From Escherichia phage vB_EcoM_P54: a DNA stretch of 64,000 nt. Each line of letters starts with the position of its first letter. Within the stretch, counting starts at the first letter, position 1. Of this stretch, positions 1,900 through 9,167 are shown in pieces. Where the stretch lies: the sequence record PV390658.1; one strand, written 5' to 3'. The notes beneath the pieces are model-generated. The model was not told the DNA's origin. It ran no database searches and worked only from the letters and a program-made list of their open reading frames with translations. A program made the translations under genes and the position numbers.

Positions 1900-2106
1900 T
1901 TAAATCTTTTTAGAAAACTTCGAAAAGAGTTCTCTTAGTTTTTCAGTGATGCCTAACTGTATCTCTAATATTTCAAAGATAACCCATATTAGCATGGCTC
2001 CAAACAATGAACCTTGTTCAAAATCAGCAAATAGGTTAATAACAAGCATACCAATCACAATAACTGGTGCATCAACAACCAAACCTTCCCAAAGGCGTTT
2101 AAGCAT
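1900..2106 (-). CDS. small hydrophobic protein (68 aa), hypothetical
   Basis: ORF track 1900..2106; hydrophobic segment VVDAPVIVIGMLVINLF; sits between NrdH-like gene and nrdD. Confidence 0.35.
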   Translation of the reverse strand: MLKRLWEGLVVDAPVIVIGMLVINLFADFEQGSLFGAMLIWVIFEILEIQLGITEKLRELFSKFSKKI

Positions 2107-2341
2107 TGTTCACCTCTGACATAAAATTCTGTAGCGTTCCAACAGGTTCTAGGTTTTGACCATCAGTTTTCATGATGAGTGGCATCTGACGAACTGGCAT
2201 CTGTGCAATATCCATCAGGTCTGACAGTTCATAATCCTGCCCTAACATTCTCACAACATGGTCAATACCACGAGCTTTTGCAAAATTCTTTGCAGTCTCA
2301 CACTGAGGGCATCCAGTTTTGGAGTAAATTACATAAGTCAT
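2099..2341 (-). CDS. nrdH: glutaredoxin-like redoxin (NrdH/thioredoxin fold)
   Basis: 80 aa; N-terminal YSKTGCPQCETAK with CPxC redox motif; directly downstream of nrdB. Confidence 0.65.
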   Translation of the reverse strand: MTYVIYSKTGCPQCETAKNFAKARGIDHVVRMLGQDYELSDLMDIAQMPVRQMPLIMKTDGQNLEPVGTLQNFMSEVNNA

Positions 2342-3414
2342 TAAGGAACCTCTAAAAATCCACTATTCAAATCATCTACAACAGTATTCAATAAATACGC
2401 ACCGTTCTGTTGCTCCTGATTAGCATTCTGCTCTTTATCAATTTCCATCTTCTTAATCATATACTTCAAAGGTGGTTCTTTAGGAGCTACAAAATCTCTG
2501 GGAATGCCAAACATATCATACAGTGGGGCAGCATTATAGTAAACCCACTCATGAAGAAGCTTTGTATTTAATCCAACTACAGCGCGTCCTTCGGAGAAGA
2601 TATAATACGACCATTTCTCTTCGCTTTCAACTACTTCATCTAAGATTACTTTAATCTCTGGAAGAATTTGTTGGAAAGCTTTTTGCCACTCATCATCTCT
2701 TAAAGTTTCTTTTAAAACTTCAATATCAATTTTAGTGTGAAGGATTTCATCAAGCATAATTTTCTGGACAGCTTGAGCAATACCCTGAAATTTATCTTGA
2801 GCATCAAGTGCAAAAGTACATGCAAAGGATGCCATAAAGGATATACCTTCCAGTGCAGTCACTGCAAATAGACCTTTTAGAATCACTTTATGGAAGTGCA
2901 AAGGGTCTTTATCCAGAAGTGAGTCACGGACATAACTCAGTCGATAGTTTATGCCTTCATCTAGTAATTCTTCAAGAACACGATTCACAGTTTTTAATCG
3001 GTCTTGCACAGCAATATTCTGGTTAATCTCATCTAAGATTGTTTCAGGGTTTTTAATACATTGCCTTACAATCTCCGAGTAAGTGAGGGCATGTAGGTTT
3101 TCAATCTCAGACTGCTTCATAATTGCAGTTGCATAAATGTCATCAGAGATGAATGGTGCAAAGGCAAACGCTAAACTTTTAGCAACTTGAGTATCTGCTT
3201 CCCATTGCCACTTAAGAATCTCAAGCATTACACCTGACATTGATGCTGGTACACTCTCAAAATCAAGACGTGATTGTTCAAAAGGGAACTCATCTTCTGA
3301 CCAGTCTTGTGCTTTTTGTTGTTTATATAGTTCAAAGATTTTTGGGTAGTGTTTATTAAGTGAGTCGAATGTTTTTCTCTCACCACCTAAAAAGATTGGG
3401 TGTTGGTTAATCAT
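2341..3414 (-). CDS. nrdB: ribonucleotide reductase class Ia beta subunit
   Basis: ORF track 2341..3474; diiron-type RNR small-subunit-like sequence; I place the start at ATG 3414 (MINQHPIFLGG) which has an AAGGAG RBS and abuts the upstream ORF stop. Confidence 0.85.
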   Translation of the reverse strand: MINQHPIFLGGERKTFDSLNKHYPKIFELYKQQKAQDWSEDEFPFEQSRLDFESVPASMSGVMLEILKWQWEADTQVAKSLAFAFAPFISDDIYATAIMKQSEIENLHALTYSEIVRQCIKNPETILDEINQNIAVQDRLKTVNRVLEELLDEGINYRLSYVRDSLLDKDPLHFHKVILKGLFAVTALEGISFMASFACTFALDAQDKFQGIAQAVQKIMLDEILHTKIDIEVLKETLRDDEWQKAFQQILPEIKVILDEVVESEEKWSYYIFSEGRAVVGLNTKLLHEWVYYNAAPLYDMFGIPRDFVAPKEPPLKYMIKKMEIDKEQNANQEQQNGAYLLNTVVDDLNSGFLEVP

Positions 3415-3668
3415 AGCGTGATTTCTCCTTTCTTTATCATCTCTAAGGCTTGTTTTCTGTCTAAAACTTCCCAATTTTCTTTGTTAAACATGTCATAAGG
3501 TCTTGCATAGATTTTACCATCTGCTGTAGAGATGTAAGAGACACCAGCGACCCATGAGTCATCATTCTGTTTTATCATCATATCTGTGCTACTCACATAG
3601 TACAGCGTTTTCCGAGGTTTGTGGAGCAAGTATATGGGTCTCTCATGTTTTTCTATTAAGTCTTTCAT
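3411..3668 (-). CDS. hypothetical protein (~86 aa) between nrdA and nrdB
   Basis: ORF track 3411..3752 overlaps nrdA 3' end; internal start MKDLIEKHERP at 3668 has a GGAG RBS. Confidence 0.4.
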   Translation of the reverse strand: MKDLIEKHERPIYLLHKPRKTLYYVSSTDMMIKQNDDSWVAGVSYISTADGKIYARPYDMFNKENWEVLDRKQALEMIKKGEITL

Positions 3669-3723
3669 AGTTTCTCCAAAGTTAATTTTAGAGGGTCTTT
3701 TACGACCCTCGTAGTTATTAAAA

Positions 3724-5958
3724 CTAAACACCACAACCCTCGCAATAAGCATCTTGCAGTGCAGATTTACCTACACCAATGCGGCTGTTGAGATAGTACA
3801 TGGTTTTCATACCTACTGAGTTGGCATAAATCATATACTTCAAAGCTTGAGCCAATGATACCTTCTTAGCTTTTGCGTAGTCAACATAGAAATCTGAAGA
3901 GATAGCTTGACCAGTGAACTTTTGAACAATTGCATAACAATCAATCAGGTCAAAGGTGTCAATATCCCAAGCAATTTCATAGACATACTTCAACTCTTCA
4001 TAATCTGGAACAATAAACAGTACGTTACCAGTTGCAGACTTTTTAGTTAAAATAAAGTCACGAATTGGATACAAGCCATTTGTCGTATTAGTTGCCAGTG
4101 AAGAACTCTCATTAGGCATGTAAGCTTCTAATACAGAGTTACGGATTCCACCATTTTCTTTAATACGTTGTGCTAAGTCATCCCAATCATAACGAAGTTT
4201 TGCATCATGCTTCTCATCAATCTTCCTGTTAGCTGTCTTCGGAGGAACCCAACCTTCAGGATACTTAGTGAACTGCATATACTCAGGTACACCACGTTCT
4301 TTAGCAAGTCTTAAAGAAGCTTCGTGTAAGTAGTAAGAGTGCATTTCAGCAAGCTCATGAAGCTTCGTCTTACCTGCTCTTGAAGAATAGTTCACGTAAT
4401 TTTTTGCAAGGTAATGAGCCACATTTGTAAGGCCAATACCAACAGAACGACGCTTCTGAACATGGTTGCGCATCGACGGATACGGATAATCCATAAGGTC
4501 AATAACGGAGTCAACCATTGCAAGAGCATAATAAGCAACGTCAGCGTATTCATCTTCTGAAATTCTCCCTGCAACCAAACTAGCTAGGAAGCAAAGAGCT
4601 ACCTCACCATCCTCTTTCACAGCATCATCTCTGTAAAGGTCTGTCTCTTTCTCAAAGCCGTACACTGGCAACACAATTTCCATACAAAGATTTGACATCT
4701 TCAAAGGTTCTTTAAATGGTGTATGTGTGTTTGCATTATTTGTGAAGAATGGGTACACACGTCCTGTTGCATAACGCTGCTGGATAAACAGTTTAGCAAT
4801 TTCACGAGCCTTCACCCGTCTGTGCTTCACACCTGAATGCACTGCATGACCAACTGCCATAGCAAACTCATCAGCAGATGCTGTGTAGAACATGTCATAG
4901 AGTTTTGGTGCATCCTTGTAAGAGAATAGCAACCAGTCTGTATCATATTGAACACACTGCCAGAAATAATCATTTGTACCAAATGAGTAGTCCATCTCGT
5001 TAATACGTTTCGAAGGAACCGTTGTAGGGTGCTTCAAACGCAGTAAATCTTCAATCTGCGGGTCTAGAGCGGTGTAGAAGTTGTTAGCTGAACCACCACG
5101 GCTCTTTTGTTTGTTTGCCTCTACAGATGAACGTACAAGCTTGTAATAAGGTAGTTTACCCATATGCTCAATAGTATTTTGACGGATACCATCACCAATA
5201 GTGCGAGTCTCCATCAGCATCCCAATACCAGCTTGCTTTGTAGTCATATCATAAGCAACCTTTGCAGCAATACCTAGAGATTCAGCAGTATCATTCGCCT
5301 TAATCAAACAGCATGACGCATAACCTGATTTAGTAGCTCTTAAACCATTCAGATAAGGCGTAGGAGCATTAATCTTAAGGTCAGATAGGTAAGTGTATAG
5401 CTTGATAACATCTTGCAGTCTACGGTGCTTTGGTTGCTTCTCAAAGGCTTTCATAGCCATACCCATAAACATAAACTGTGGTGACTCAAAAAGTCTTCCC
5501 GTTTTAATATCACGGATACCATACTTGTCTCTGAACTGTTTCAGGACTGCATAACCATAAGAGATATCTTTTGAGTGCACAATGTATCCTTGCAGGTATT
5601 CAAGCTCTTCCTGAGAATAGTCCATCTTCTCCCAAAGTCCTGCTCTCTCCATATTTTTAACGAAGGTAACCAGCGTAGGAACCTTAGTAAAGCCTCCAAA
5701 GGCTTCTTTGTAGATAATCCCTAGAAGTAGCCGTCCAGCCATGTCTGAGTACTCTTGAGTTTGTTTATCAACACAAACATCAATCATAGCTTGGTGCATC
5801 TCTTTTGTAGTGCAACCTTCATAGACACGTTTCATGGCTTCCATAGTGACTTCTGACCAAATAATACCACGCTTATCTGCCCATGATGCCCACTTATTCA
5901 GTCTTTCTGGGTCAAAGCTTACTACTGTACCGTTTGATTTTTTAATTGTCTTAATCAT
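3724..5958 (-). CDS. nrdA: ribonucleotide reductase class Ia alpha subunit
   Basis: 744 aa; N-terminal ATP-cone (IKKSNGTVVSFDPERL), SNLCMEIVLP region, C-terminal redox tail CEGCGV. Confidence 0.9.
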   Translation of the reverse strand: MIKTIKKSNGTVVSFDPERLNKWASWADKRGIIWSEVTMEAMKRVYEGCTTKEMHQAMIDVCVDKQTQEYSDMAGRLLLGIIYKEAFGGFTKVPTLVTFVKNMERAGLWEKMDYSQEELEYLQGYIVHSKDISYGYAVLKQFRDKYGIRDIKTGRLFESPQFMFMGMAMKAFEKQPKHRRLQDVIKLYTYLSDLKINAPTPYLNGLRATKSGYASCCLIKANDTAESLGIAAKVAYDMTTKQAGIGMLMETRTIGDGIRQNTIEHMGKLPYYKLVRSSVEANKQKSRGGSANNFYTALDPQIEDLLRLKHPTTVPSKRINEMDYSFGTNDYFWQCVQYDTDWLLFSYKDAPKLYDMFYTASADEFAMAVGHAVHSGVKHRRVKAREIAKLFIQQRYATGRVYPFFTNNANTHTPFKEPLKMSNLCMEIVLPVYGFEKETDLYRDDAVKEDGEVALCFLASLVAGRISEDEYADVAYYALAMVDSVIDLMDYPYPSMRNHVQKRRSVGIGLTNVAHYLAKNYVNYSSRAGKTKLHELAEMHSYYLHEASLRLAKERGVPEYMQFTKYPEGWVPPKTANRKIDEKHDAKLRYDWDDLAQRIKENGGIRNSVLEAYMPNESSSLATNTTNGLYPIRDFILTKKSATGNVLFIVPDYEELKYVYEIAWDIDTFDLIDCYAIVQKFTGQAISSDFYVDYAKAKKVSLAQALKYMIYANSVGMKTMYYLNSRIGVGKSALQDAYCEGCGV

Positions 5959-5999: not shown

Positions 6000-6004
6000 C
6001 TAGT

Positions 6005-6343
6005 TTAAATCTTGAAAATTTGCTCATTCTGCCACATATCGTAAAACTTATCACTTACTTTTGTGACTGAAGAAGTGTGCATACAATTCAGGAAGAACCA
6101 TGATGATGTATTATTCTCCATAAGTGTTTCAAGTTTTTGTGTAACGTTCACATCCATGTCTGCAACAACGTAATTACCTCGCATCTTGCAAACAATTCTT
6201 CCAAACAAGATTGCACTTCTGCCTCTTCGGTCATCACAGTACATAACTGTGTCTCCGTGCTTAACGTCTTGTCCGATACTGTCAACACCTAACTTAGCAC
6301 CTGAGATAATGTCATCATAAGATAACTTTTTTGCTTTAGACAC
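6005..6343 (-). CDS. hypothetical protein (112 aa)
   Basis: ORF track; packed head-to-tail with neighbours; terminator hairpin just downstream. Confidence 0.45.
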   Translation of the reverse strand: MSKAKKLSYDDIISGAKLGVDSIGQDVKHGDTVMYCDDRRGRSAILFGRIVCKMRGNYVVADMDVNVTQKLETLMENNTSSWFFLNCMHTSSVTKVSDKFYDMWQNEQIFKI

Positions 6344-6668
6344 GGTATTTCTCCAAGTTTCTTTTTAGATATAACCAACCATAGTCAGTTCTTTCTACAC
6401 CCATGAAGAGTGGAGCCATCACAACTTTCCCAAAAGTATTTCTGTGTAGGCAGATTTCAAAGGAATACTCTTTCTCGATATCAATCCCATATTTGTACAG
6501 GACTGCTTTTAAAACTTGTTCATTATCCAGAAGTGTATCTGGAGTCTCACCATACTTCTCAAGTAACGGGTCATACATAAACACCGTCATAGAGATATTG
6601 TAGTTTGAGAAGTGGCTCTTCTGAGCCACACCTTCTTTATTAATGTTCTGTGAATCCATTATAACCAA
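6336..6668 (-). CDS. hypothetical protein (110 aa)
   Basis: ORF track; overlaps neighbours by a few nt in operon-like packing. Confidence 0.45.
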   Translation of the reverse strand: MVIMDSQNINKEGVAQKSHFSNYNISMTVFMYDPLLEKYGETPDTLLDNEQVLKAVLYKYGIDIEKEYSFEICLHRNTFGKVVMAPLFMGVERTDYGWLYLKRNLEKYRV

Positions 6669-7395
6669 CCCCTTTTAACCAGCACTTCAGGTTATTAGCA
6701 TCATAATTCAGTTTCGGGTATGAGGTTACATGGAACTGCTCACCATCATAGTAGACAATATCTGCAATCCATAGCCCATTCTCTTTACAGAAATCTTTAT
6801 CTGCTTTAGAGGTAATTGGATTAACTTCTACAAAACCATCTACACCCAAATCCTTTAAGCTACCTACAATACCTTTGCAGATAACGCATGTCTCAGATAC
6901 TACCACAAAAAGTTCTTGGCTTTCAAGCTCTACAATGTATTCACCAAGCTGTACTTTAGGGAGATTTGATTGCTTCATAATCTTCCCATCTGCTGCACGG
7001 ACAATTGCATACCATTCTTTACCATCAACTACTGACATTCTGATGATACACTCTTGACCAGTACGCTTCTCAATATCTGCAAGACGTTTTAAAGCTTCTT
7101 CATAGTCGTCTGTGTACTTTAGGTCATTATTATGGCAAACAGCTTCCATAGCGCCATTGTGGTCATGTTGTGACAGATAAATTAGACCGTCAAGAACATA
7201 TTGCAAATCTGCCTGAGCATCCAGTGTCTCAATGGGGTCTTTCTCTTCAATTGCTTTTACAAGCTCTTTTGCTTCTTCAAGCATACACAGAGACTGGGAT
7301 TTCAAAGATTCCCAATACTCATCACTGTAAGGTTGCTTTTGGGTGTTTCCGCAACGAAGATTCCAGTTTTTTACTGATTCTCTTGAGTTAAACAT
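6640..7395 (-). CDS. MazG-like NTP pyrophosphohydrolase domain protein with extra C-terminal domain
   Basis: 251 aa; N-terminal region EAKELVKAIEEKDPIETLDAQADLQYVLDGL resembles the all-alpha MazG/NTP-PPase fold (from memory); C-terminal ~130 aa unassigned. Confidence 0.45.
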   Translation of the reverse strand: MFNSRESVKNWNLRCGNTQKQPYSDEYWESLKSQSLCMLEEAKELVKAIEEKDPIETLDAQADLQYVLDGLIYLSQHDHNGAMEAVCHNNDLKYTDDYEEALKRLADIEKRTGQECIIRMSVVDGKEWYAIVRAADGKIMKQSNLPKVQLGEYIVELESQELFVVVSETCVICKGIVGSLKDLGVDGFVEVNPITSKADKDFCKENGLWIADIVYYDGEQFHVTSYPKLNYDANNLKCWLKGVGYNGFTEH

Positions 7396-7633
7396 TCGGA
7401 CTCCTTAAAAATCTGTTAACTTTTAGCTCTCGTGTTTCAATATATTCCAGATGCTCACGTAACTCTTGACGTTTAAGCATTAGGTGCTGCATTTGAGATT
7501 CAACAGCTTCAACTTCTTTAATTATTGACTCTCTGGCATTTGCAAGAATGCGCTCAAGTTCTTCAATCTTGCTGTCAACCTTTGCTACATGACTCACAGC
7601 TTTACTTTTGTTAAACATTTTATTCTCTCTCAA
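7388..7633 (-). CDS. hypothetical coiled-coil protein (81 aa)
   Basis: ORF track; heptad-like charged sequence. Confidence 0.4.
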   Translation of the reverse strand: MRENKMFNKSKAVSHVAKVDSKIEELERILANARESIIKEVEAVESQMQHLMLKRQELREHLEYIETRELKVNRFLRSPNV

Positions 7634-7639
7634 TAGTTA

Positions 7640-8137
7640 TCAAGCACAATTTGCTTTCATTACCTTATGGATTCTTTTTTCAGCATCTTCATAAGTTTCT
7701 TTAGTGATAAACTTAATTGCTGCAATATTGGCATTGTAGAAGAGTCTGAGCTTAGAGTCAATCCTTTTTGTCATTACATCGAATTTATGTTGAAGGTTTG
7801 CTTCGCCATAAACTAGACCGCCTTTTGTGTAGTAGGTTTGAATAATGTAAAAGTCAAAAAATTCTTTTCCAAAGCTCTCAATATCTTTTTTAATATACTC
7901 AGAAGAAGTCTCATAAGTCATCCAATCACTCTCCTTAGTGACTACCTTCTTCCGAGTCTTACCAGCAACTTTTCTTTTGGTCACGCTATTAAGCTGTTTC
8001 TTTCCAATATAATATTGTCCGGTTTTCTTACAGTATACTAAATAGACAAAACCAAAATGTTTAGCGGGGTCAACTTCCCCGCATAAAGATATCCAATGAC
8101 CATAGGTAGGACAATTGCCAAATCCTTTAATCTTCAT
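7640..8137 (-). CDS. GIY-YIG family endonuclease-like protein (possible homing endonuclease)
   Basis: 165 aa; FGFVYLVYCKKTGQYYIGKK fits the GIY-(10-11)-YIG spacing. Confidence 0.5.
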   Translation of the reverse strand: MKIKGFGNCPTYGHWISLCGEVDPAKHFGFVYLVYCKKTGQYYIGKKQLNSVTKRKVAGKTRKKVVTKESDWMTYETSSEYIKKDIESFGKEFFDFYIIQTYYTKGGLVYGEANLQHKFDVMTKRIDSKLRLFYNANIAAIKFITKETYEDAEKRIHKVMKANCA

Positions 8138-9167
8138 TCATACACGGCTCCCAATTATATTTCTTAAAAGAGAAATTATCTTTTGGATTTCTCTCTTGAT
8201 ATGCTATCCAGAAATGCTGTTCCATTAACTCTAATGGCGTTTTGGTAACAGTCTGTCCATCCCATGACACATAGGTATAAGAGTCTTTTTTAGCATAGAG
8301 TTCATAGATAGCATCAAGGCACTCTTTATATGTCTCTTTACCATCTAAAGCATTCATTACAGCTACTTTGCCAGCACCTTTAAGGCCGAAGTAGTTGTCT
8401 GCATTATCTCCAGCAACAGCCTGATAACACAAGAATTTAAAACCTACACCAACTGTTTTTGCAGCTTTTGGTTTTGATTTGATAGGACAATCCCAGATAT
8501 CACCAACATTATTGTCAGCAATAAAAATTAGTGGTGACTTTTCATAAGTCATATCAATACAATAAGTCCCTTCAGCTTGTCGAAGGTCTTTGTCAATACT
8601 CATAAGAGCAGCTTTTTTACCCATCTTTTCAGCTTTAGCAATTACGATTGAATCAGCTTCGAATCCACCCTTTAAGAGTTTGAACTCTGGTCTGGATAAA
8701 AGATATTCACGACAAGCGACTAAATGTGTTGGTGTGACAGCATCTTTACGGTTACCTTGATATTGGTGCTCAAGACCTTTAACGTCTTTATGTTTATGTA
8801 CACCTTTCTCTGTTAAGTAACCTACCCAAGTTCTTTCTTTGCCAACAATCTTAAGCCATTCCTGAAGAACCTGCTGAGTAGCCATGATAGCTTCTTTTTC
8901 ACTCTTAGCTTCTTTCCAAGTCTGTCTTTCCCATTCATCTTCATCAAATGCTAGGCCAAGCTCTTCTACAAGGGTTCTCTGGTCTGCTAACCATCTTGCA
9001 GCATCTTTTGCGTTATCAAATGATTCAGATTCTTCTGCTGTGAGCTTATTGACATATTTATATTTTGCTTTCTCAACTACACAAGCACCTTTATAGGCAA
9101 TACTGTCAGAGTCAATAAAGACATGTGTAACTGAATCGGGAAGTTTTTTTAATGTGTACTTCTCCAT
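8127..9167 (-). CDS. 5'-3' exonuclease, FEN-1/RNase H-like
   Basis: 346 aa; N-terminal VFIDSDSIAYKGAC and later SIDKDLRQ acidic clusters resemble the T4 RNase H / T7 gp6 flap-nuclease pattern; GGAGAG RBS. Confidence 0.6.
   Translation of the reverse strand: MEKYTLKKLPDSVTHVFIDSDSIAYKGACVVEKAKYKYVNKLTAEESESFDNAKDAARWLADQRTLVEELGLAFDEDEWERQTWKEAKSEKEAIMATQQVLQEWLKIVGKERTWVGYLTEKGVHKHKDVKGLEHQYQGNRKDAVTPTHLVACREYLLSRPEFKLLKGGFEADSIVIAKAEKMGKKAALMSIDKDLRQAEGTYCIDMTYEKSPLIFIADNNVGDIWDCPIKSKPKAAKTVGVGFKFLCYQAVAGDNADNYFGLKGAGKVAVMNALDGKETYKECLDAIYELYAKKDSYTYVSWDGQTVTKTPLELMEQHFWIAYQERNPKDNFSFKKYNWEPCMNED

What the first reader, a model, noticed from the sequence alone, without database searches (positions are those of the whole stretch)
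6640..7395. MazG-like pyrophosphohydrolase fused to an uncharacterised C-terminal domain
Phage MazG-type enzymes have been proposed to clear alarmones or non-canonical nucleotides. Here the MazG-like segment occupies only the N-terminal ~110 aa and is followed by ~130 aa with paired cysteines (CVICKG, DFCKENG) of unknown function.
Basis: inference. Interest (0 to 1): 0.35.

Follow-up and report, generated by a model that had tools for sequence, protein, structure and literature searches.

The report
Phage dUTPase-like enzyme fused to glutaredoxin-like domain
A conserved middle gene of Felix O1-type phages encodes a MazG/DR2231-type nucleotide pyrophosphatase, probably a dUTPase, joined by a flexible linker to a previously unannotated, atypical glutaredoxin-like CxxC domain; this is a modest new domain combination in phage DNA-precursor metabolism, not a new kind of system.

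Summary
The ORF is real: 6640..7395 on the minus strand, 251 aa, in a Felixounavirus genome, conserved in about 300 phage records.

- **N-terminal module.** The pyrophosphatase module spans residues 1 to about 152: a helical bundle, a beta-hairpin and an R-x2-D-x-K-x2-K-P tail. By family profile its closest solved relative is Deinococcus DR2231, a MazG-like enzyme reported to act only on dUTP. The acidic and basic catalytic residues are invariant.
- **C-terminal domain.** Residues about 161-244 form a thioredoxin fold of the glutaredoxin/NrdH/DUF836 type. C170-V-I-C173 sits at the canonical active-site position and is kept in 35 of 35 homologues. The position of the fold's cis-proline is Asp212. 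C203 (DFCKENG) is a single cysteine and is not invariant.
- **Distribution.** The C-terminal domain was found only in this fusion, in about 6 clusters among 1.84 billion representative proteins.
- **Context.** The gene lies in the replication and dNTP-synthesis block. Stand-alone relatives of the N-terminal module sit next to RNR or thymidylate synthase genes in five other phage lineages. No trimeric dUTPase was found in these phages.

Best reading: a phage dUTP (or dNTP) pyrophosphatase carrying a tethered thiol-redox or docking domain. Novelty: a new variant of a known kind. Interest is modest.

The parts
6640..7395 (-). Whole CDS, 251 aa plus stop: two-domain protein (DR2231/MazG-like NTP pyrophosphatase plus glutaredoxin-like domain)
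   Evidence: ORF list. PHROG 2144 over the full length, E=5.7e-102. Found in 304 phage records.
6940..7395 (-). Residues 1-152: all-alpha NTP pyrophosphatase module of DR2231 type. Helices 4-14, 25-50, 54-75, 79-91 and 98-112, then beta-hairpin 116-133 and a basic tail.
   Evidence: AF2 secondary structure. BFVD matches to stand-alone 159-174 aa proteins, TMt 0.72-0.76. Profile A7 against the PDB hits DR2231 at E=7e-8.
7141..7323 (-). Residues 25-85: the stretch matched by Pfam PRA-PH (PF01503)
   Evidence: E=6.4e-6, 26.9 bits, above the 21.3-bit cut-off.
7264..7278 (-). E40-E41-A-K-E44: first acidic (metal-binding) motif, EExxE
   Evidence: Invariant in 26 of 26 diverse modules. Aligned to the EE..E motif of DR2231.
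7207..7221 (-). D59-A-Q-A-D63: second acidic motif. It is DxxxD here, where DR2231 has ExxD one residue later.
   Evidence: D63 is invariant and D59 is conserved in at least 90% of sequences. Alignment to DR2231 '...HELADL...'.
7117..7140 (-). V86-C87-H-N89-N90-D-L-K93: 'VCxNNxxK' helix, probably binding substrate or phosphate
   Evidence: N90 and K93 are invariant. Aligned to 'VHRANLSK' of DR2231. C87 is also present in stand-alone homologues.
6958..7050 (-). Residues 116-146: beta-hairpin plus the R133-x2-D136-x-K138-x2-K141...P146 tail
   Evidence: K138 and K141 are invariant; R133 and D136 are conserved in at least 90%. The tail aligns to 'RRADGKQLKP' of DR2231, which lacks the hairpin.
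6916..6957 (-). Residues 147-160: inter-domain linker
   Evidence: pLDDT is below 50 at residues 155-158. The whole-protein pTM is 0.45, against 0.79 for the C-terminal domain alone.
6664..6915 (-). Residues 161-244: thioredoxin-fold (glutaredoxin/NrdH/DUF836-like) domain with topology b1-a1-b2-a2-b3-b4-a3
   Evidence: DSSP topology. The top 50 Foldseek PDB hits are almost all thioredoxin-fold proteins (one exception at rank 22), probability 0.97-1.00, TMq 0.48-0.68. Profile against the PDB gives Grx1, NrdH and 2fgx at E=0.0045-0.05. Pfam Glrx-like or Glutaredoxin hits appear in some homologues.
6877..6888 (-). C170-V-I-C173: CxxC at the N-terminus of helix a1, the canonical redox-active position
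   Evidence: Both Cys are kept in 35 of 35 fusion homologues while the two middle residues vary freely. Aligned on CPYC of yeast Grx1 and CVQC of NrdH.
6760..6762 (-). D212: the residue at the position of the thioredoxin-fold cis-proline, just before b3
   Evidence: The NrdH alignment puts its 'AP' on the family consensus 'gd'. This column is D, S, C or Q and never P in 35 sequences.
6787..6789 (-). C203 (in DFCKENG): a lone cysteine in helix a2, not invariant
   Evidence: Ala in 4 of 35 homologues.
7388..7633 (-). Upstream 81-aa coiled-coil-like ORF (PHROG 4442, function unknown). Its stop overlaps the target's start by 8 nt.
6336..6668 (-). Downstream 107-110 aa ORF (PHROG 4007) that overlaps the target's 3' end and is conserved next to the fusion in all related loci
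   Evidence: tblastn hits in L003, L006, L007 and L008. PHROGs.
2099..5958 (-). Context: nrdA (3724..5958), a small ORF, nrdB (2341..3474 from the first start codon) and a separate 80-aa CPQC glutaredoxin (2099..2341)
   Evidence: ORF list. Annotation of the homologous region in phage Alf5. PHROG 22 'thioredoxin domain'.

Best explanation
The gene encodes a two-domain enzyme of the phage's DNA-precursor machinery.

**N-terminal module (residues 1 to about 152).**
- Shown: it is an all-alpha, MazG-superfamily nucleoside-triphosphate pyrophosphatase of the DR2231 type. Its acidic EExxE and DxxxD motifs should hold the Mg/Mn ions. Conserved N90, K93, R133, K138 and K141 should hold the triphosphate, so the reaction would be (d)NTP to (d)NMP plus PPi.
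- Inferred: its main substrate is dUTP. That would keep uracil out of phage DNA and supply dUMP to the phage thymidylate synthase, filling the place of the trimeric dUTPase that these phages lack.

**C-terminal domain (residues about 161-244).**
- Shown: it is a flexibly tethered thioredoxin-fold domain of glutaredoxin/NrdH type, with an invariant CxxC at the canonical position but Asp in place of the cis-proline.
- Inferred, weakly: it is a thiol-reactive module that either docks the pyrophosphatase onto a thiol-dependent partner of the dNTP pathway (ribonucleotide reductase or its reductant system) or makes the enzyme responsive to the thiol redox state. It is probably not an efficient general disulfide reductase.
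For: **Domain identities**
- Pfam PRA-PH is above its cut-off and PHROG 2144 matches the full length.
- AF2 models: whole protein pLDDT 82; C-terminal domain alone pLDDT 88, pTM 0.79.
- A family profile of 26 N-terminal modules hits DR2231 first in the PDB (E=7e-8 to 4e-7). The alignment runs through the EE..E..D..YV and V.xaNxxK motifs. The trailing R..DGK..KP motif also lines up, though that second stretch is not significant on its own.
- E40, E41, E44, D63, N90, K93, K138 and K141 are invariant.
- DR2231 is reported to act exclusively on dUTP (title of Mota et al. 2016, seen in the reference list of PMC10014863; see also PMC5122711).

**C-terminal domain**
- Foldseek returns almost only thioredoxin-fold proteins.
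- The profile hits Grx1, NrdH and DUF836 structures with the CxxC aligned on their active sites.
- Pfam Glrx-like matches 6 of 15 homologues and Glutaredoxin 3 of 15, best E=1.7e-5.
- The CxxC is kept in 35 of 35 sequences, although the domain is only 25-38% identical between lineages.

**Context**
- The gene is in the block primase/helicase, exonuclease, GIY-YIG, small ORF, this gene, then RNR.
- The phage has ThyA, DHFR, dNMP kinase, NrdAB and NrdDG but no annotated dUTPase or dCMP deaminase. tblastn and a motif scan found no trimeric dUTPase.
- Stand-alone relatives of the N-terminal module lie in the DNA-replication or dNTP-synthesis block in 5 of 5 other phage lineages. Four sit within a few genes of RNR genes, with ThyX, NT5C and Trx/Grx nearby in two of them; the fifth sits in a T4-like replication block with ThyA about 7 kb away.
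Against: - No activity was measured, and substrate specificity cannot be read from sequence.
- The second acidic motif differs from DR2231 (DxxxD rather than ExxD). The family also has an inserted helix and hairpin that DR2231 lacks. Specificity may therefore differ.
- E. coli supplies its own Dut, so a phage dUTPase is not strictly required.
- For the C-terminal domain, the cis-proline, the most conserved feature of catalytic thioredoxin-fold proteins besides the CxxC, is absent. The two residues inside the CxxC are unconstrained.
- The phage already has a canonical 80-aa CPQC glutaredoxin next to nrdB.
- Pectobacterium phage Wc4-1 keeps the fusion with its CxxC yet has no detectable NrdA, NrdB or that glutaredoxin in its whole genome. 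The domain is therefore not tied to the phage class Ia RNR.
- AF2 gives no confident packing between the two domains (pTM 0.45).
Confidence: 0.55

Rival explanations
1. The N-terminal module is a broad 'house-cleaning' (d)NTP pyrophosphatase that removes non-canonical or damaged nucleotides (for example oxidised dNTPs), or trims canonical pools. It is not a dUTP-specific enzyme. The redox domain would then fit a link to oxidative damage.
For: - Many members of the all-alpha NTP-PPase superfamily are promiscuous or act on non-canonical NTPs (PMC10014863 introduction; PMC5122711).
- The assayed cyanophage MazG is a pyrophosphohydrolase; its substrate preference was not read here (PMC6850273).
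- The motif differences from DR2231 (DxxxD, inserted hairpin) leave specificity open.
Against: - The closest characterised relative is reported to be exclusive for dUTP.
- The genome lacks any other dUTPase but has ThyA.
- Stand-alone relatives sit near thymidylate synthase genes: two genes from ThyX in L013, six genes from it in L012, and about 7 kb from ThyA in L015.
Confidence: 0.25
2. The enzyme degrades signalling nucleotides, either (p)ppGpp alarmones or immune second messengers, as a host-takeover or anti-defence function.
For: E. coli MazG was linked to ppGpp, and phage MazG proteins have long been proposed to act on alarmones (from my own knowledge; this is also the background of PMC6850273). 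No assay excludes it here.
Against: - The assayed cyanophage MazG does not hydrolyse magic-spot nucleotides (title of PMC6850273).
- This protein belongs to the DR2231/PRA-PH-like branch, not the canonical MazG family PF03819.
- The PADLOC library of defence-system proteins was not searched, and no link to defence or anti-defence was seen.
- The context in six phage lineages is RNR, thymidylate synthase and replication genes.
Confidence: 0.07
3. The C-terminal domain is not a redox module. The CxxC binds a metal (Zn, or an Fe-S cluster bridged between subunits of the oligomeric enzyme), or the domain is simply a structural or oligomerisation appendage.
For: - The cis-proline is absent, the CxxC dipeptide is unconstrained, and no glutathione-binding or NrdH signature motifs are present.
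- MazG-type enzymes are oligomers (from my own knowledge), so two or more CxxC pairs could come together.
- Some glutaredoxins bridge [2Fe-2S] clusters (from my own knowledge; human Grx2 appears among the Foldseek hits).
Against: - The CxxC sits exactly at the N-cap of helix a1 of a thioredoxin fold, the geometry of redox-active sites.
- Only two cysteines are invariant in the domain.
- No other metal-ligand pattern is conserved.
Confidence: 0.2
4. The protein is a histidine-biosynthesis enzyme (phosphoribosyl-ATP pyrophosphohydrolase, HisE/HisI), as many GenBank records name it.
For: The best Pfam hit is PRA-PH. Records carry the names 'phosphoribosyl-ATP pyrophosphohydrolase' or 'hisI'.
Against: - The name comes from the Pfam family label, which covers the wider HisE/MazG-like fold.
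- The family profile hits DR2231 about 100-fold better than HisE (E=7e-8 against 1.9e-5).
- No other histidine-pathway gene is in the phage, and the context is dNTP synthesis.
Confidence: 0.02

Closest known systems
DR2231 of Deinococcus radiodurans (MazG-like all-alpha NTP pyrophosphohydrolase; PDB 2yeu, 2yf3, 5i0m and others)
   Same: - It is the best PDB match of the family profile (E=7e-8 to 4e-7).
- The motifs align: N-terminal 'fH..iG', EE..E, the D..YV helix and V.xaNxxK. The trailing R..DGK..KP also lines up, though that stretch is not significant on its own.
- Foldseek match to 2yf3, TMt 0.53. BFVD relatives are labelled 'DR2231-like'.
   Different: - The phage family has an extra helix and beta-hairpin (about residues 95-132) between the NxxK helix and the basic tail.
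- Its second acidic motif is DxxxD rather than ExxD.
- It has Cys87 where DR2231 has His.
- It carries a C-terminal thioredoxin-fold domain that DR2231 lacks.
PHROG 2144 / 'MazG-like pyrophosphatase' or 'phosphoribosyl-ATP pyrophosphohydrolase-like protein' of Ounavirinae phages (Felix O1, wV8, Moogle, phiEa21-4-like, Wc4)
   Same: It is the same gene: full-length match at E=5.7e-102, 98-100% identical in many Felixounavirus genomes. It is listed as a middle gene in Shigella phage Sf14 (PMC12482277).
   Different: Existing annotation names only the N-terminal half. In the records seen and the papers searched, the C-terminal thioredoxin-fold domain is nowhere annotated or discussed.
Glutaredoxin-like proteins: NrdH-redoxins, DUF836/Glrx-like (PF05768; PDB 1ttz, 2fgx), classical glutaredoxins
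   Same: - Same b1-a1-b2-a2-b3-b4-a3 topology and size.
- The CxxC lies at the start of helix a1 and aligns on CPYC/CVQC.
- TMt is 0.73-0.75 to 1ttz and 7c10.
- Some family members give weak Pfam hits.
   Different: - There is no cis-proline (Asp212).
- In the aligned sequences I saw no NrdH WSGFRP-type motif and no glutathione-site TVP/GG motifs; this is my own reading, not a formal scan.
- The window protein reaches no Pfam threshold.
- It has no detectable similarity to the phage's own 80-aa glutaredoxin (BLASTP E=1.0).
- The domain is never found as a stand-alone gene.
Phage T4 gp56 dCTPase/dUTPase and the T4 dNTP-synthetase complex (from my own knowledge; not tested here)
   Same: It is a functional analogue: a phage pyrophosphatase, which I recall being grouped with the dimeric d(C/U)TPases, that makes dUMP/dCMP for downstream enzymes and works alongside RNR and a phage thioredoxin/glutaredoxin.
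   Different: No sequence comparison was made here. T4 keeps the pyrophosphatase and the thioredoxin as separate proteins.
Canonical MazG (E. coli MazG, PF03819) and cyanophage MazG
   Same: Same all-alpha superfamily and the same EExxE-type metal site. The profile gives a weak match to E. coli MazG 3crc (E=0.07).
   Different: It belongs to a different branch (PRA-PH/DR2231-like). It has a single catalytic domain, not a tandem. There is no evidence for alarmone hydrolysis.

Membership tests
All-alpha NTP pyrophosphohydrolase superfamily (MazG / HisE / dimeric dUTPase) | Profile match to a family model above the curated threshold | tested here: met
   Pfam PF01503 PRA-PH, 26.9 bits against a cut-off of 21.3, residues 25-85.
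All-alpha NTP pyrophosphohydrolase superfamily (MazG / HisE / dimeric dUTPase) | All-alpha helical-bundle fold | tested here: met
   AF2 helices 25-50, 54-75, 79-91 and 98-112 at pLDDT mostly 80-96, lower (67-79) over residues 71-90. Foldseek hits to DR2231 and to 'DR2231-like NTP-PPase' viral models.
All-alpha NTP pyrophosphohydrolase superfamily (MazG / HisE / dimeric dUTPase) | Acidic metal-binding motifs EExx(E/D) plus a second (E/D)xx(x)D pair | tested here: met
   E40, E41, E44 and D63 are invariant and D59 is conserved in at least 90% of 26 diverse modules. The second pair is DxxxD rather than ExxD.
All-alpha NTP pyrophosphohydrolase superfamily (MazG / HisE / dimeric dUTPase) | Mg/Mn-dependent hydrolysis of (d)NTP to (d)NMP plus PPi | not testable with these tools
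   Needs an enzyme assay.
DR2231-like subfamily (dUTP-specific MazG-like enzymes) | Closest solved relative by family profile, with the C-terminal R..DGK..KP motif | tested here: met
   DR2231 entries are the seven best PDB hits, E=7e-8 to 1.6e-5. The tail motif lines up, though that second stretch is not significant on its own.
DR2231-like subfamily (dUTP-specific MazG-like enzymes) | Exclusive activity on dUTP | not testable with these tools
   Inferred only, from homology, the absence of another dUTPase and neighbourhood to ThyA/ThyX and RNR.
Thioredoxin-fold superfamily | b-a-b-a-b-b-a topology with a central sheet | tested here: met
   DSSP on two AF2 models. 986 Foldseek matches, the top 50 almost all thioredoxin-fold proteins, best E=2.3e-4.
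Thioredoxin-fold superfamily | CxxC at the N-terminus of helix a1 | tested here: met
   C170/C173 lie immediately before and inside the first turn of helix 171-182. They are invariant in 35 of 35 sequences and aligned on Grx/NrdH active sites.
Thioredoxin-fold superfamily | cis-Proline loop before strand b3 | tested here: not met
   The Pro of NrdH 'APVVV' aligns with Asp212. The column is D, S, C or Q in all 35 sequences.
Glutaredoxin (PF00462) / NrdH / Glrx-like DUF836 (PF05768) | Match to the family model at a significant score | tested here: inconclusive
   The window protein has no hit. Among 15 diverse homologues, 6 hit Glrx-like (best E=0.021) and 3 hit Glutaredoxin (best E=1.7e-5). The profile against PDB Grx and NrdH chains gives E=0.0045-0.05.
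Glutaredoxin (PF00462) / NrdH / Glrx-like DUF836 (PF05768) | Family signature motifs (glutathione-site TVP and GG/CDD for Grx; WSGFRP for NrdH) | tested here: not met
   None was seen by eye in the alignment of 15 diverse domains. Besides the CxxC, only A198-D199 and W239-L240 are invariant. The motif definitions come from my own knowledge, and no pattern scan was run.
Glutaredoxin (PF00462) / NrdH / Glrx-like DUF836 (PF05768) | Disulfide reductase activity or electron donation to RNR | not testable with these tools
   Needs biochemical assays. The indirect evidence is mixed: there is RNR neighbourhood, but the fusion persists in phage Wc4-1, which lacks NrdAB.
Canonical MazG (PF03819) | Match to PF03819 | tested here: not met
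   PF03819 does not appear among the Pfam hits of the window protein even at E up to 10. Only a few distant stand-alone homologues carry a precomputed PF03819 hit.

The most novel reading that the evidence does not exclude
The tethered, cis-proline-less CxxC domain is a dedicated coupling device. It would form a (mixed-disulfide or non-covalent) complex with a thiol-dependent partner. Candidates are the C-terminal CxxC tail of ribonucleotide reductase, the class III RNR, or (by analogy with host thioredoxin on T7 DNA polymerase) the phage's T7-like DNA polymerase. The dUTP-destroying enzyme would then be physically parked at the site where dNTPs are made or used. That would be a one-polypeptide version of a 'dNTP-synthetase complex', and its activity might be gated by the redox state.
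Probability: 0.15. Interest if true: 0.6.

Novelty: new variant of a known kind. Interest (0 to 1): 0.33.

Why it matters
Phage MazG-like genes are widespread, and their roles have long been guessed at rather than tested.

- **A concrete hypothesis.** For a whole subfamily of well-studied coliphages and Salmonella phages (Felix O1 and relatives, used in typing and therapy), the 'MazG' appears to be a DR2231-type probable dUTPase. It would fill an apparent gap, since these phages have thymidylate synthase but no dUTPase.
- **An unannotated domain.** The protein carries a redox-type domain that no database or paper seen here annotates.
- **Possible biological value.** If the CxxC domain couples the enzyme to ribonucleotide reductase or to thiol redox state, it would be a compact natural example of enzyme tethering in dNTP synthesis. 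It would also be a rare thioredoxin-fold CxxC protein that works without the cis-proline.
- **Practical value.** It corrects misleading names: 'phosphoribosyl-ATP pyrophosphohydrolase' and 'hisI' for this gene, and 'NAD synthetase' for its neighbour.

Tried and rejected
1. **Cys87 as a fusion-specific redox partner of the CxxC.** Rejected. Cys87 (in the MazG helix VCxNNxxK) is also present in many stand-alone homologues, is Ser in one fusion (P0041), and is His, Leu, Met or Val in others.
2. **The C-terminal domain as a duplicate of the phage's own glutaredoxin.** Rejected. BLASTP against the 80-aa CPQC glutaredoxin gives E=1.0.
3. **A dedicated reductant of the phage NrdAB.** Weakened. The complete genome of Pectobacterium phage Wc4-1 has no tblastn match to NrdA, NrdB or the 80-aa glutaredoxin but keeps the fusion with its CxxC. 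A second lineage (L007) has only NrdD nearby.
4. **Stand-alone copies of the C-terminal domain.** None is real. P0040 (157 aa, L011) is followed in another frame by the thioredoxin-like domain with CALC, so it is a frameshifted fusion. P0127 (88 aa, L018) is the second half of a split gene on a scaffold where nrdA is split too. The exhaustive search of 1.84 billion representatives found the domain only in 244-251 aa fusions. The other four hits were repeat proteins.
5. **P0043 (224 aa) as a cysteine-less version of the domain.** hhalign found no relation between its C-terminal extension and the domain (probability 0.9%).
6. **Single-sequence searches of the C-terminal half.** Pfam, NCBIfam and PDB gave nothing significant. 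Only profiles and structure prediction resolved it.
7. **Literature searches.** Searches for the fusion (MazG with thioredoxin or glutaredoxin; Felix O1 or Felixounavirus) returned nothing relevant. The two DR2231 primary papers were not held.
8. **Scan for a trimeric dUTPase.** tblastn with E. coli Dut and a motif-3 scan of the window and of two complete Ounavirinae genomes were negative.
Full report
**1. What is in the sequence**

The window is a Felixounavirus (Ounavirinae, Felix O1-like myovirus) genome. The region 6000-8200 is 97-98.5% identical to the closest of 257 matching E. coli, Salmonella and Shigella phage records.

The finding's coordinates match exactly one ORF on the minus strand: 6640..7395, ATG start, 251 aa.
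- Its start overlaps the stop of an upstream 81-aa ORF by 8 nt (ATGTTTAA).
- Its 3' end is overlapped by a downstream 107-110 aa ORF.
- tblastn finds the protein in 304 phage records, nearly all Ounavirinae, at identities from 100% down to 38%.
- It matches PHROG 2144 ('MazG-like pyrophosphatase') end to end at E=5.7e-102.

This is therefore a real, conserved gene.

**2. The N-terminal module**

Pfam PRA-PH (PF01503) matches residues 25-85 above its curated cut-off.

An AlphaFold2 model (mean pLDDT 82) shows helices 4-14, 25-50, 54-75, 79-91 and 98-112. These are followed by a beta-hairpin (116-133) and an extended segment.

- Foldseek against viral models finds stand-alone proteins of 159-174 aa that cover about 157-162 residues of the query (TMt 0.72-0.76, 31-35% identity). 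Many other hits are labelled 'NTP pyrophosphohydrolase, DR2231-like'.
- A profile search with the first 151 residues recovered 169 proteins. These include the 244-251 aa fusions and many stand-alone forms of 148-184 aa.
- In an alignment of 26 diverse modules the invariant residues are E40, E41, E44, D63, N90, K93, K138 and K141. D59, R133 and D136 are conserved in at least 90%.

The functional unit therefore runs to about residue 152.

A profile of that alignment hits DR2231 of Deinococcus radiodurans as the best solved relative (E=7e-8 to 4e-7). HisE (1yvw) scores 1.9e-5 and E. coli MazG 0.07.
- The alignment covers the N-terminal 'fH..iG' motif, the EE..E motif, the second acidic helix and 'V.xaNxxK'.
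- The trailing 'RRADGKQLKP' of DR2231 lines up with 'R133..D136.K138..K141-P', although that second stretch is not significant on its own.
- Differences: the phage family has an inserted helix and hairpin, a DxxxD second motif where DR2231 has ExxD, and Cys87 where DR2231 has His.

[quoted passage not shown] I saw this only as the title of Mota et al. 2016 in the reference lists of PMC10014863 and PMC7575645. PMC5122711 also discusses it as a MazG-like enzyme that can supply dUTPase activity.

**3. The C-terminal domain**

Single-sequence searches of residues about 150-251 found nothing significant in Pfam, NCBIfam or the PDB. Two weak PDB hits were thioredoxin-fold proteins with the CxxC aligned.

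*Structure.*
- The AF2 models give the topology b1(161-165), a1(171-182), b2(189-191), a2(197-205), b3(212-216), b4(221-225), a3(233-242). This is the glutaredoxin version of the thioredoxin fold, with C170/C173 at the N-terminus of a1.
- Modelled alone with 15 diverse homologues, the domain reaches pLDDT 88 and pTM 0.79.
- Foldseek with the whole-protein model returns mostly thioredoxins, glutaredoxins and calsequestrin Trx-domains. TMt is 0.73-0.75 for the DUF836 protein XcR50 (1ttz) and for cGrx1 (7c10).
- With the domain model, 986 matches are returned and the top 50 are almost all thioredoxin-fold proteins. Best is 1zma at E=2.3e-4; TMq ranges 0.48-0.68.

*Sequence.*
- A profile of the 15 domains hits yeast Grx1, the DUF836 protein 2fgx, NrdH-redoxins and Grx2/3 (E=0.0045-0.054). 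The CxxC aligns on CPYC/CVQC.
- Scanned one by one against Pfam, 6 of 15 homologues hit Glrx-like/DUF836, 3 hit Glutaredoxin (best E=1.7e-5) and 3 hit Thioredoxin_2.

The fold assignment therefore rests on independent structural and sequence evidence.

**4. What is and is not conserved in that domain**

Across 35 fusion sequences:
- Both cysteines of the CxxC are present in every one.
- The two residues between them vary freely: VI, II, AI, EI, FI, PI, SM, ML, RL, TQ, TL, SL, SF, TK.
- C203 is Ala in 4 sequences.
- Apart from the CxxC, only A198-D199 (start of a2) and W239-L240 (a3) are invariant among 15 diverse domains.
- The alignment to NrdH puts the fold's cis-proline ('APVVV') on Asp212. 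That column is D, S, C or Q and never Pro.
- I did not see the NrdH WSGFRP motif or the glutathione-site motifs. The motif definitions come from my own knowledge and no pattern scan was run.

The C-terminal domain diverges faster than the N-terminal module. Against the window protein, distant lineages are 25-38% identical in the C-terminal domain and 38-56% in the N-terminal module.

The whole-protein pTM of 0.45, with pLDDT below 50 at residues 155-158, indicates a flexible tether and no confident inter-domain packing.

**5. Distribution**

An exhaustive profile search of the C-terminal domain against 1.84 billion representative proteins found it in six clusters only. All are 244-251 aa proteins with the domain at residues about 150-250. 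The remaining four hits are long repeat proteins.

Apparent stand-alone copies turned out to be split genes:
- In L011 the thioredoxin-like domain (with CALC) follows P0040 in another reading frame.
- In L018 the gene is cut into 120-aa and 88-aa pieces, on a scaffold where nrdA is also split.

The domain is thus known only as part of this fusion, and the fusion is confined to Ounavirinae-like phages. These are Felixounavirus, Suspvirus, Mooglevirus, Kolesnikvirus, the Pectobacterium Wc4/Arno162 group, a Yersinia phage and metagenomic relatives.

**6. Genomic context**

In the window and in annotated relatives the gene order is:
- DNA polymerase, dNMP kinase, primase/helicase, unknown ORFs, 5'-3' exonuclease, 165-aa GIY-YIG protein, 81-aa ORF;
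- this gene;
- 110-aa and 112-aa ORFs, nrdA, nrdB, 80-aa glutaredoxin, nrdD, nrdG.

The same order holds in distant members: Erwinia phage (L003), metagenomic L006 and L007, and Pectobacterium phage Wc4-1.

A fully annotated Felixounavirus genome lists ThyA, DHFR, dNMP kinase, NrdAB, NrdDG, glutaredoxin, PRPP synthetase and Nampt. It lists no dUTPase, dCMP deaminase or dCTP deaminase.

Stand-alone relatives of the N-terminal module in five unrelated phage lineages also sit among nucleotide-metabolism or replication genes:

| Locus | Neighbourhood of the stand-alone module |
|---|---|
| L012 | NT5C, thioredoxin, ThyX, NrdB, NrdA |
| L013/L014 | NT5C, ThyX, NrdA, NrdB, glutaredoxin |
| L015 | T4-like phage, between the clamp loader and DNA polymerase, ThyA about 7 kb away |
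| L016 | One gene from NrdB, NrdA, NrdD, NrdG |
| L017 | Directly after NrdB |

In two of those lineages (L012 and L013/L014) the pyrophosphatase and a Trx/Grx are separate genes of one cluster. In Ounavirinae a Trx-fold domain is fused to the enzyme. This is a 'Rosetta-stone' hint of functional linkage, but only a hint.

**7. How it most likely works**

*Shown:* a DR2231-type all-alpha pyrophosphatase with an intact set of acidic and basic residues; a thioredoxin-fold CxxC domain on a flexible linker; a conserved place in the dNTP-synthesis and replication gene block.

*Inferred, moderate confidence:* the enzyme hydrolyses dUTP (possibly other dNTPs too) to the monophosphate and pyrophosphate. 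This would remove dUTP made from RNR-derived dUDP and feed dUMP to the phage ThyA.

*Inferred, low confidence:* the CxxC domain is thiol-reactive, and serves as a docking or regulatory module rather than an efficient general reductase. The reasons are the missing cis-proline and the unconstrained CxxC dipeptide. From my own knowledge, mutating the cis-proline in DsbA/thioredoxin stabilises mixed disulfides with substrates, so a natural non-proline variant might favour long-lived complexes.

It is unlikely to be the dedicated reductant of the phage class Ia RNR. A canonical CPQC glutaredoxin is encoded right after nrdB. Phage Wc4-1 keeps the fusion although its whole genome lacks NrdA, NrdB and that glutaredoxin.

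**8. Comparison with what is known, and novelty**

The N-terminal module qualifies as a member of the all-alpha NTP-PPase superfamily and of its DR2231-like branch. It is not a canonical MazG (PF03819), and there is no reason to call it HisE.

The C-terminal domain is a structural member of the thioredoxin-fold superfamily. It fails one defining feature of catalytic members (the cis-proline) and reaches no family threshold for glutaredoxin, NrdH or DUF836. It should be described as 'glutaredoxin-like, atypical', not filed as a glutaredoxin.

The gene family itself is already in databases (PHROG 2144), named after its N-terminal half. What is new:
- recognition of the C-terminal thioredoxin-fold domain;
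- its restriction to this fusion;
- the DR2231/dUTPase link;
- the observation that the fusion fills the dUTPase gap in these phages.

I found no paper describing any of this. It is a new variant of a known kind and of modest interest. A specialist would find it sensible rather than surprising, but it gives a clear and cheap set of experiments for a long-standing vague annotation.

**9. Verdict**

The domain boundaries, and the reading of DFCKENG as a second cysteine pair, are wrong.
- Confidence by claim: domain identities about 0.9; dUTP as the main substrate about 0.5; any specific role for the CxxC domain 0.3 or less.

Noticed in passing
window 7640..8137 (-): The 165-aa protein two genes upstream is named 'NAD synthetase' in many GenBank records and in PHROG 447. 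By Pfam it is a SegE-type GIY-YIG nuclease domain (PF19835, E=2.2e-27) with no added DNA-binding domain. It is syntenic and 52-63% identical across distant Ounavirinae-like phages, which is better conserved than the MazG fusion. It therefore looks like a core replication or repair gene, not a mobile homing endonuclease, and the 'NAD synthetase' name looks wrong.
   Followed up: partly
window 6336..6668 (-): The 107-110 aa ORF overlapping the 3' end of the target (PHROG 4007, function unknown) is co-conserved with the fusion in all four related loci tested. It also matches a small PHROG (3506, 115 positions) labelled 'thymidylate synthase' at E=6e-11. That is far too short for ThyA or ThyX, so the label is doubtful. 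It may be a partner of the fusion protein.
   Followed up: partly
GenBank MG065664.1 (Campylobacter phage A132) and GU169904.1 (Staphylococcus phage SA1); Records attributed to a Campylobacter phage and a Staphylococcus phage carry this Felix O1-type gene at 99.2% and 97.4% protein identity. These records probably contain Felixounavirus DNA through contamination, chimeric assembly or misassignment.
   Followed up: no
L011:1174-1910 and L018:2622-3267: In two metagenome assemblies the fusion gene is split by a frameshift into a MazG part and a thioredoxin-like part. In L018 nrdA is split as well. These are probably assembly or sequencing errors and could be mistaken for stand-alone domains.
   Followed up: yes
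L015:7001-7654 (T4-like metagenomic contig): A 217-aa homologue of the pyrophosphatase module, carrying a large insertion, sits directly between the clamp-loader small subunit gene and the family B DNA polymerase gene of a T4-like phage. A dNTP pyrophosphatase placed inside the core replisome operon is striking.
   Followed up: no
window 3411..3752 (-): A 113-aa ORF (PHROG 2652, function unknown) lies between nrdA and nrdB. It overlaps nrdA, and also nrdB as listed from its first start codon. It is annotated as a hypothetical protein at the same place in related phages.
   Followed up: no
window residue C87 of the target (nt 7135..7137) and homologues: The residue before the invariant NN/N..K motif is Cys in most members of the phage family, His in DR2231 and the more distant stand-alone forms, and occasionally Leu, Met, Val or Ser. 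A Cys/His alternation next to the active site could reflect a metal or substrate contact. It remains unexplained.
   Followed up: partly
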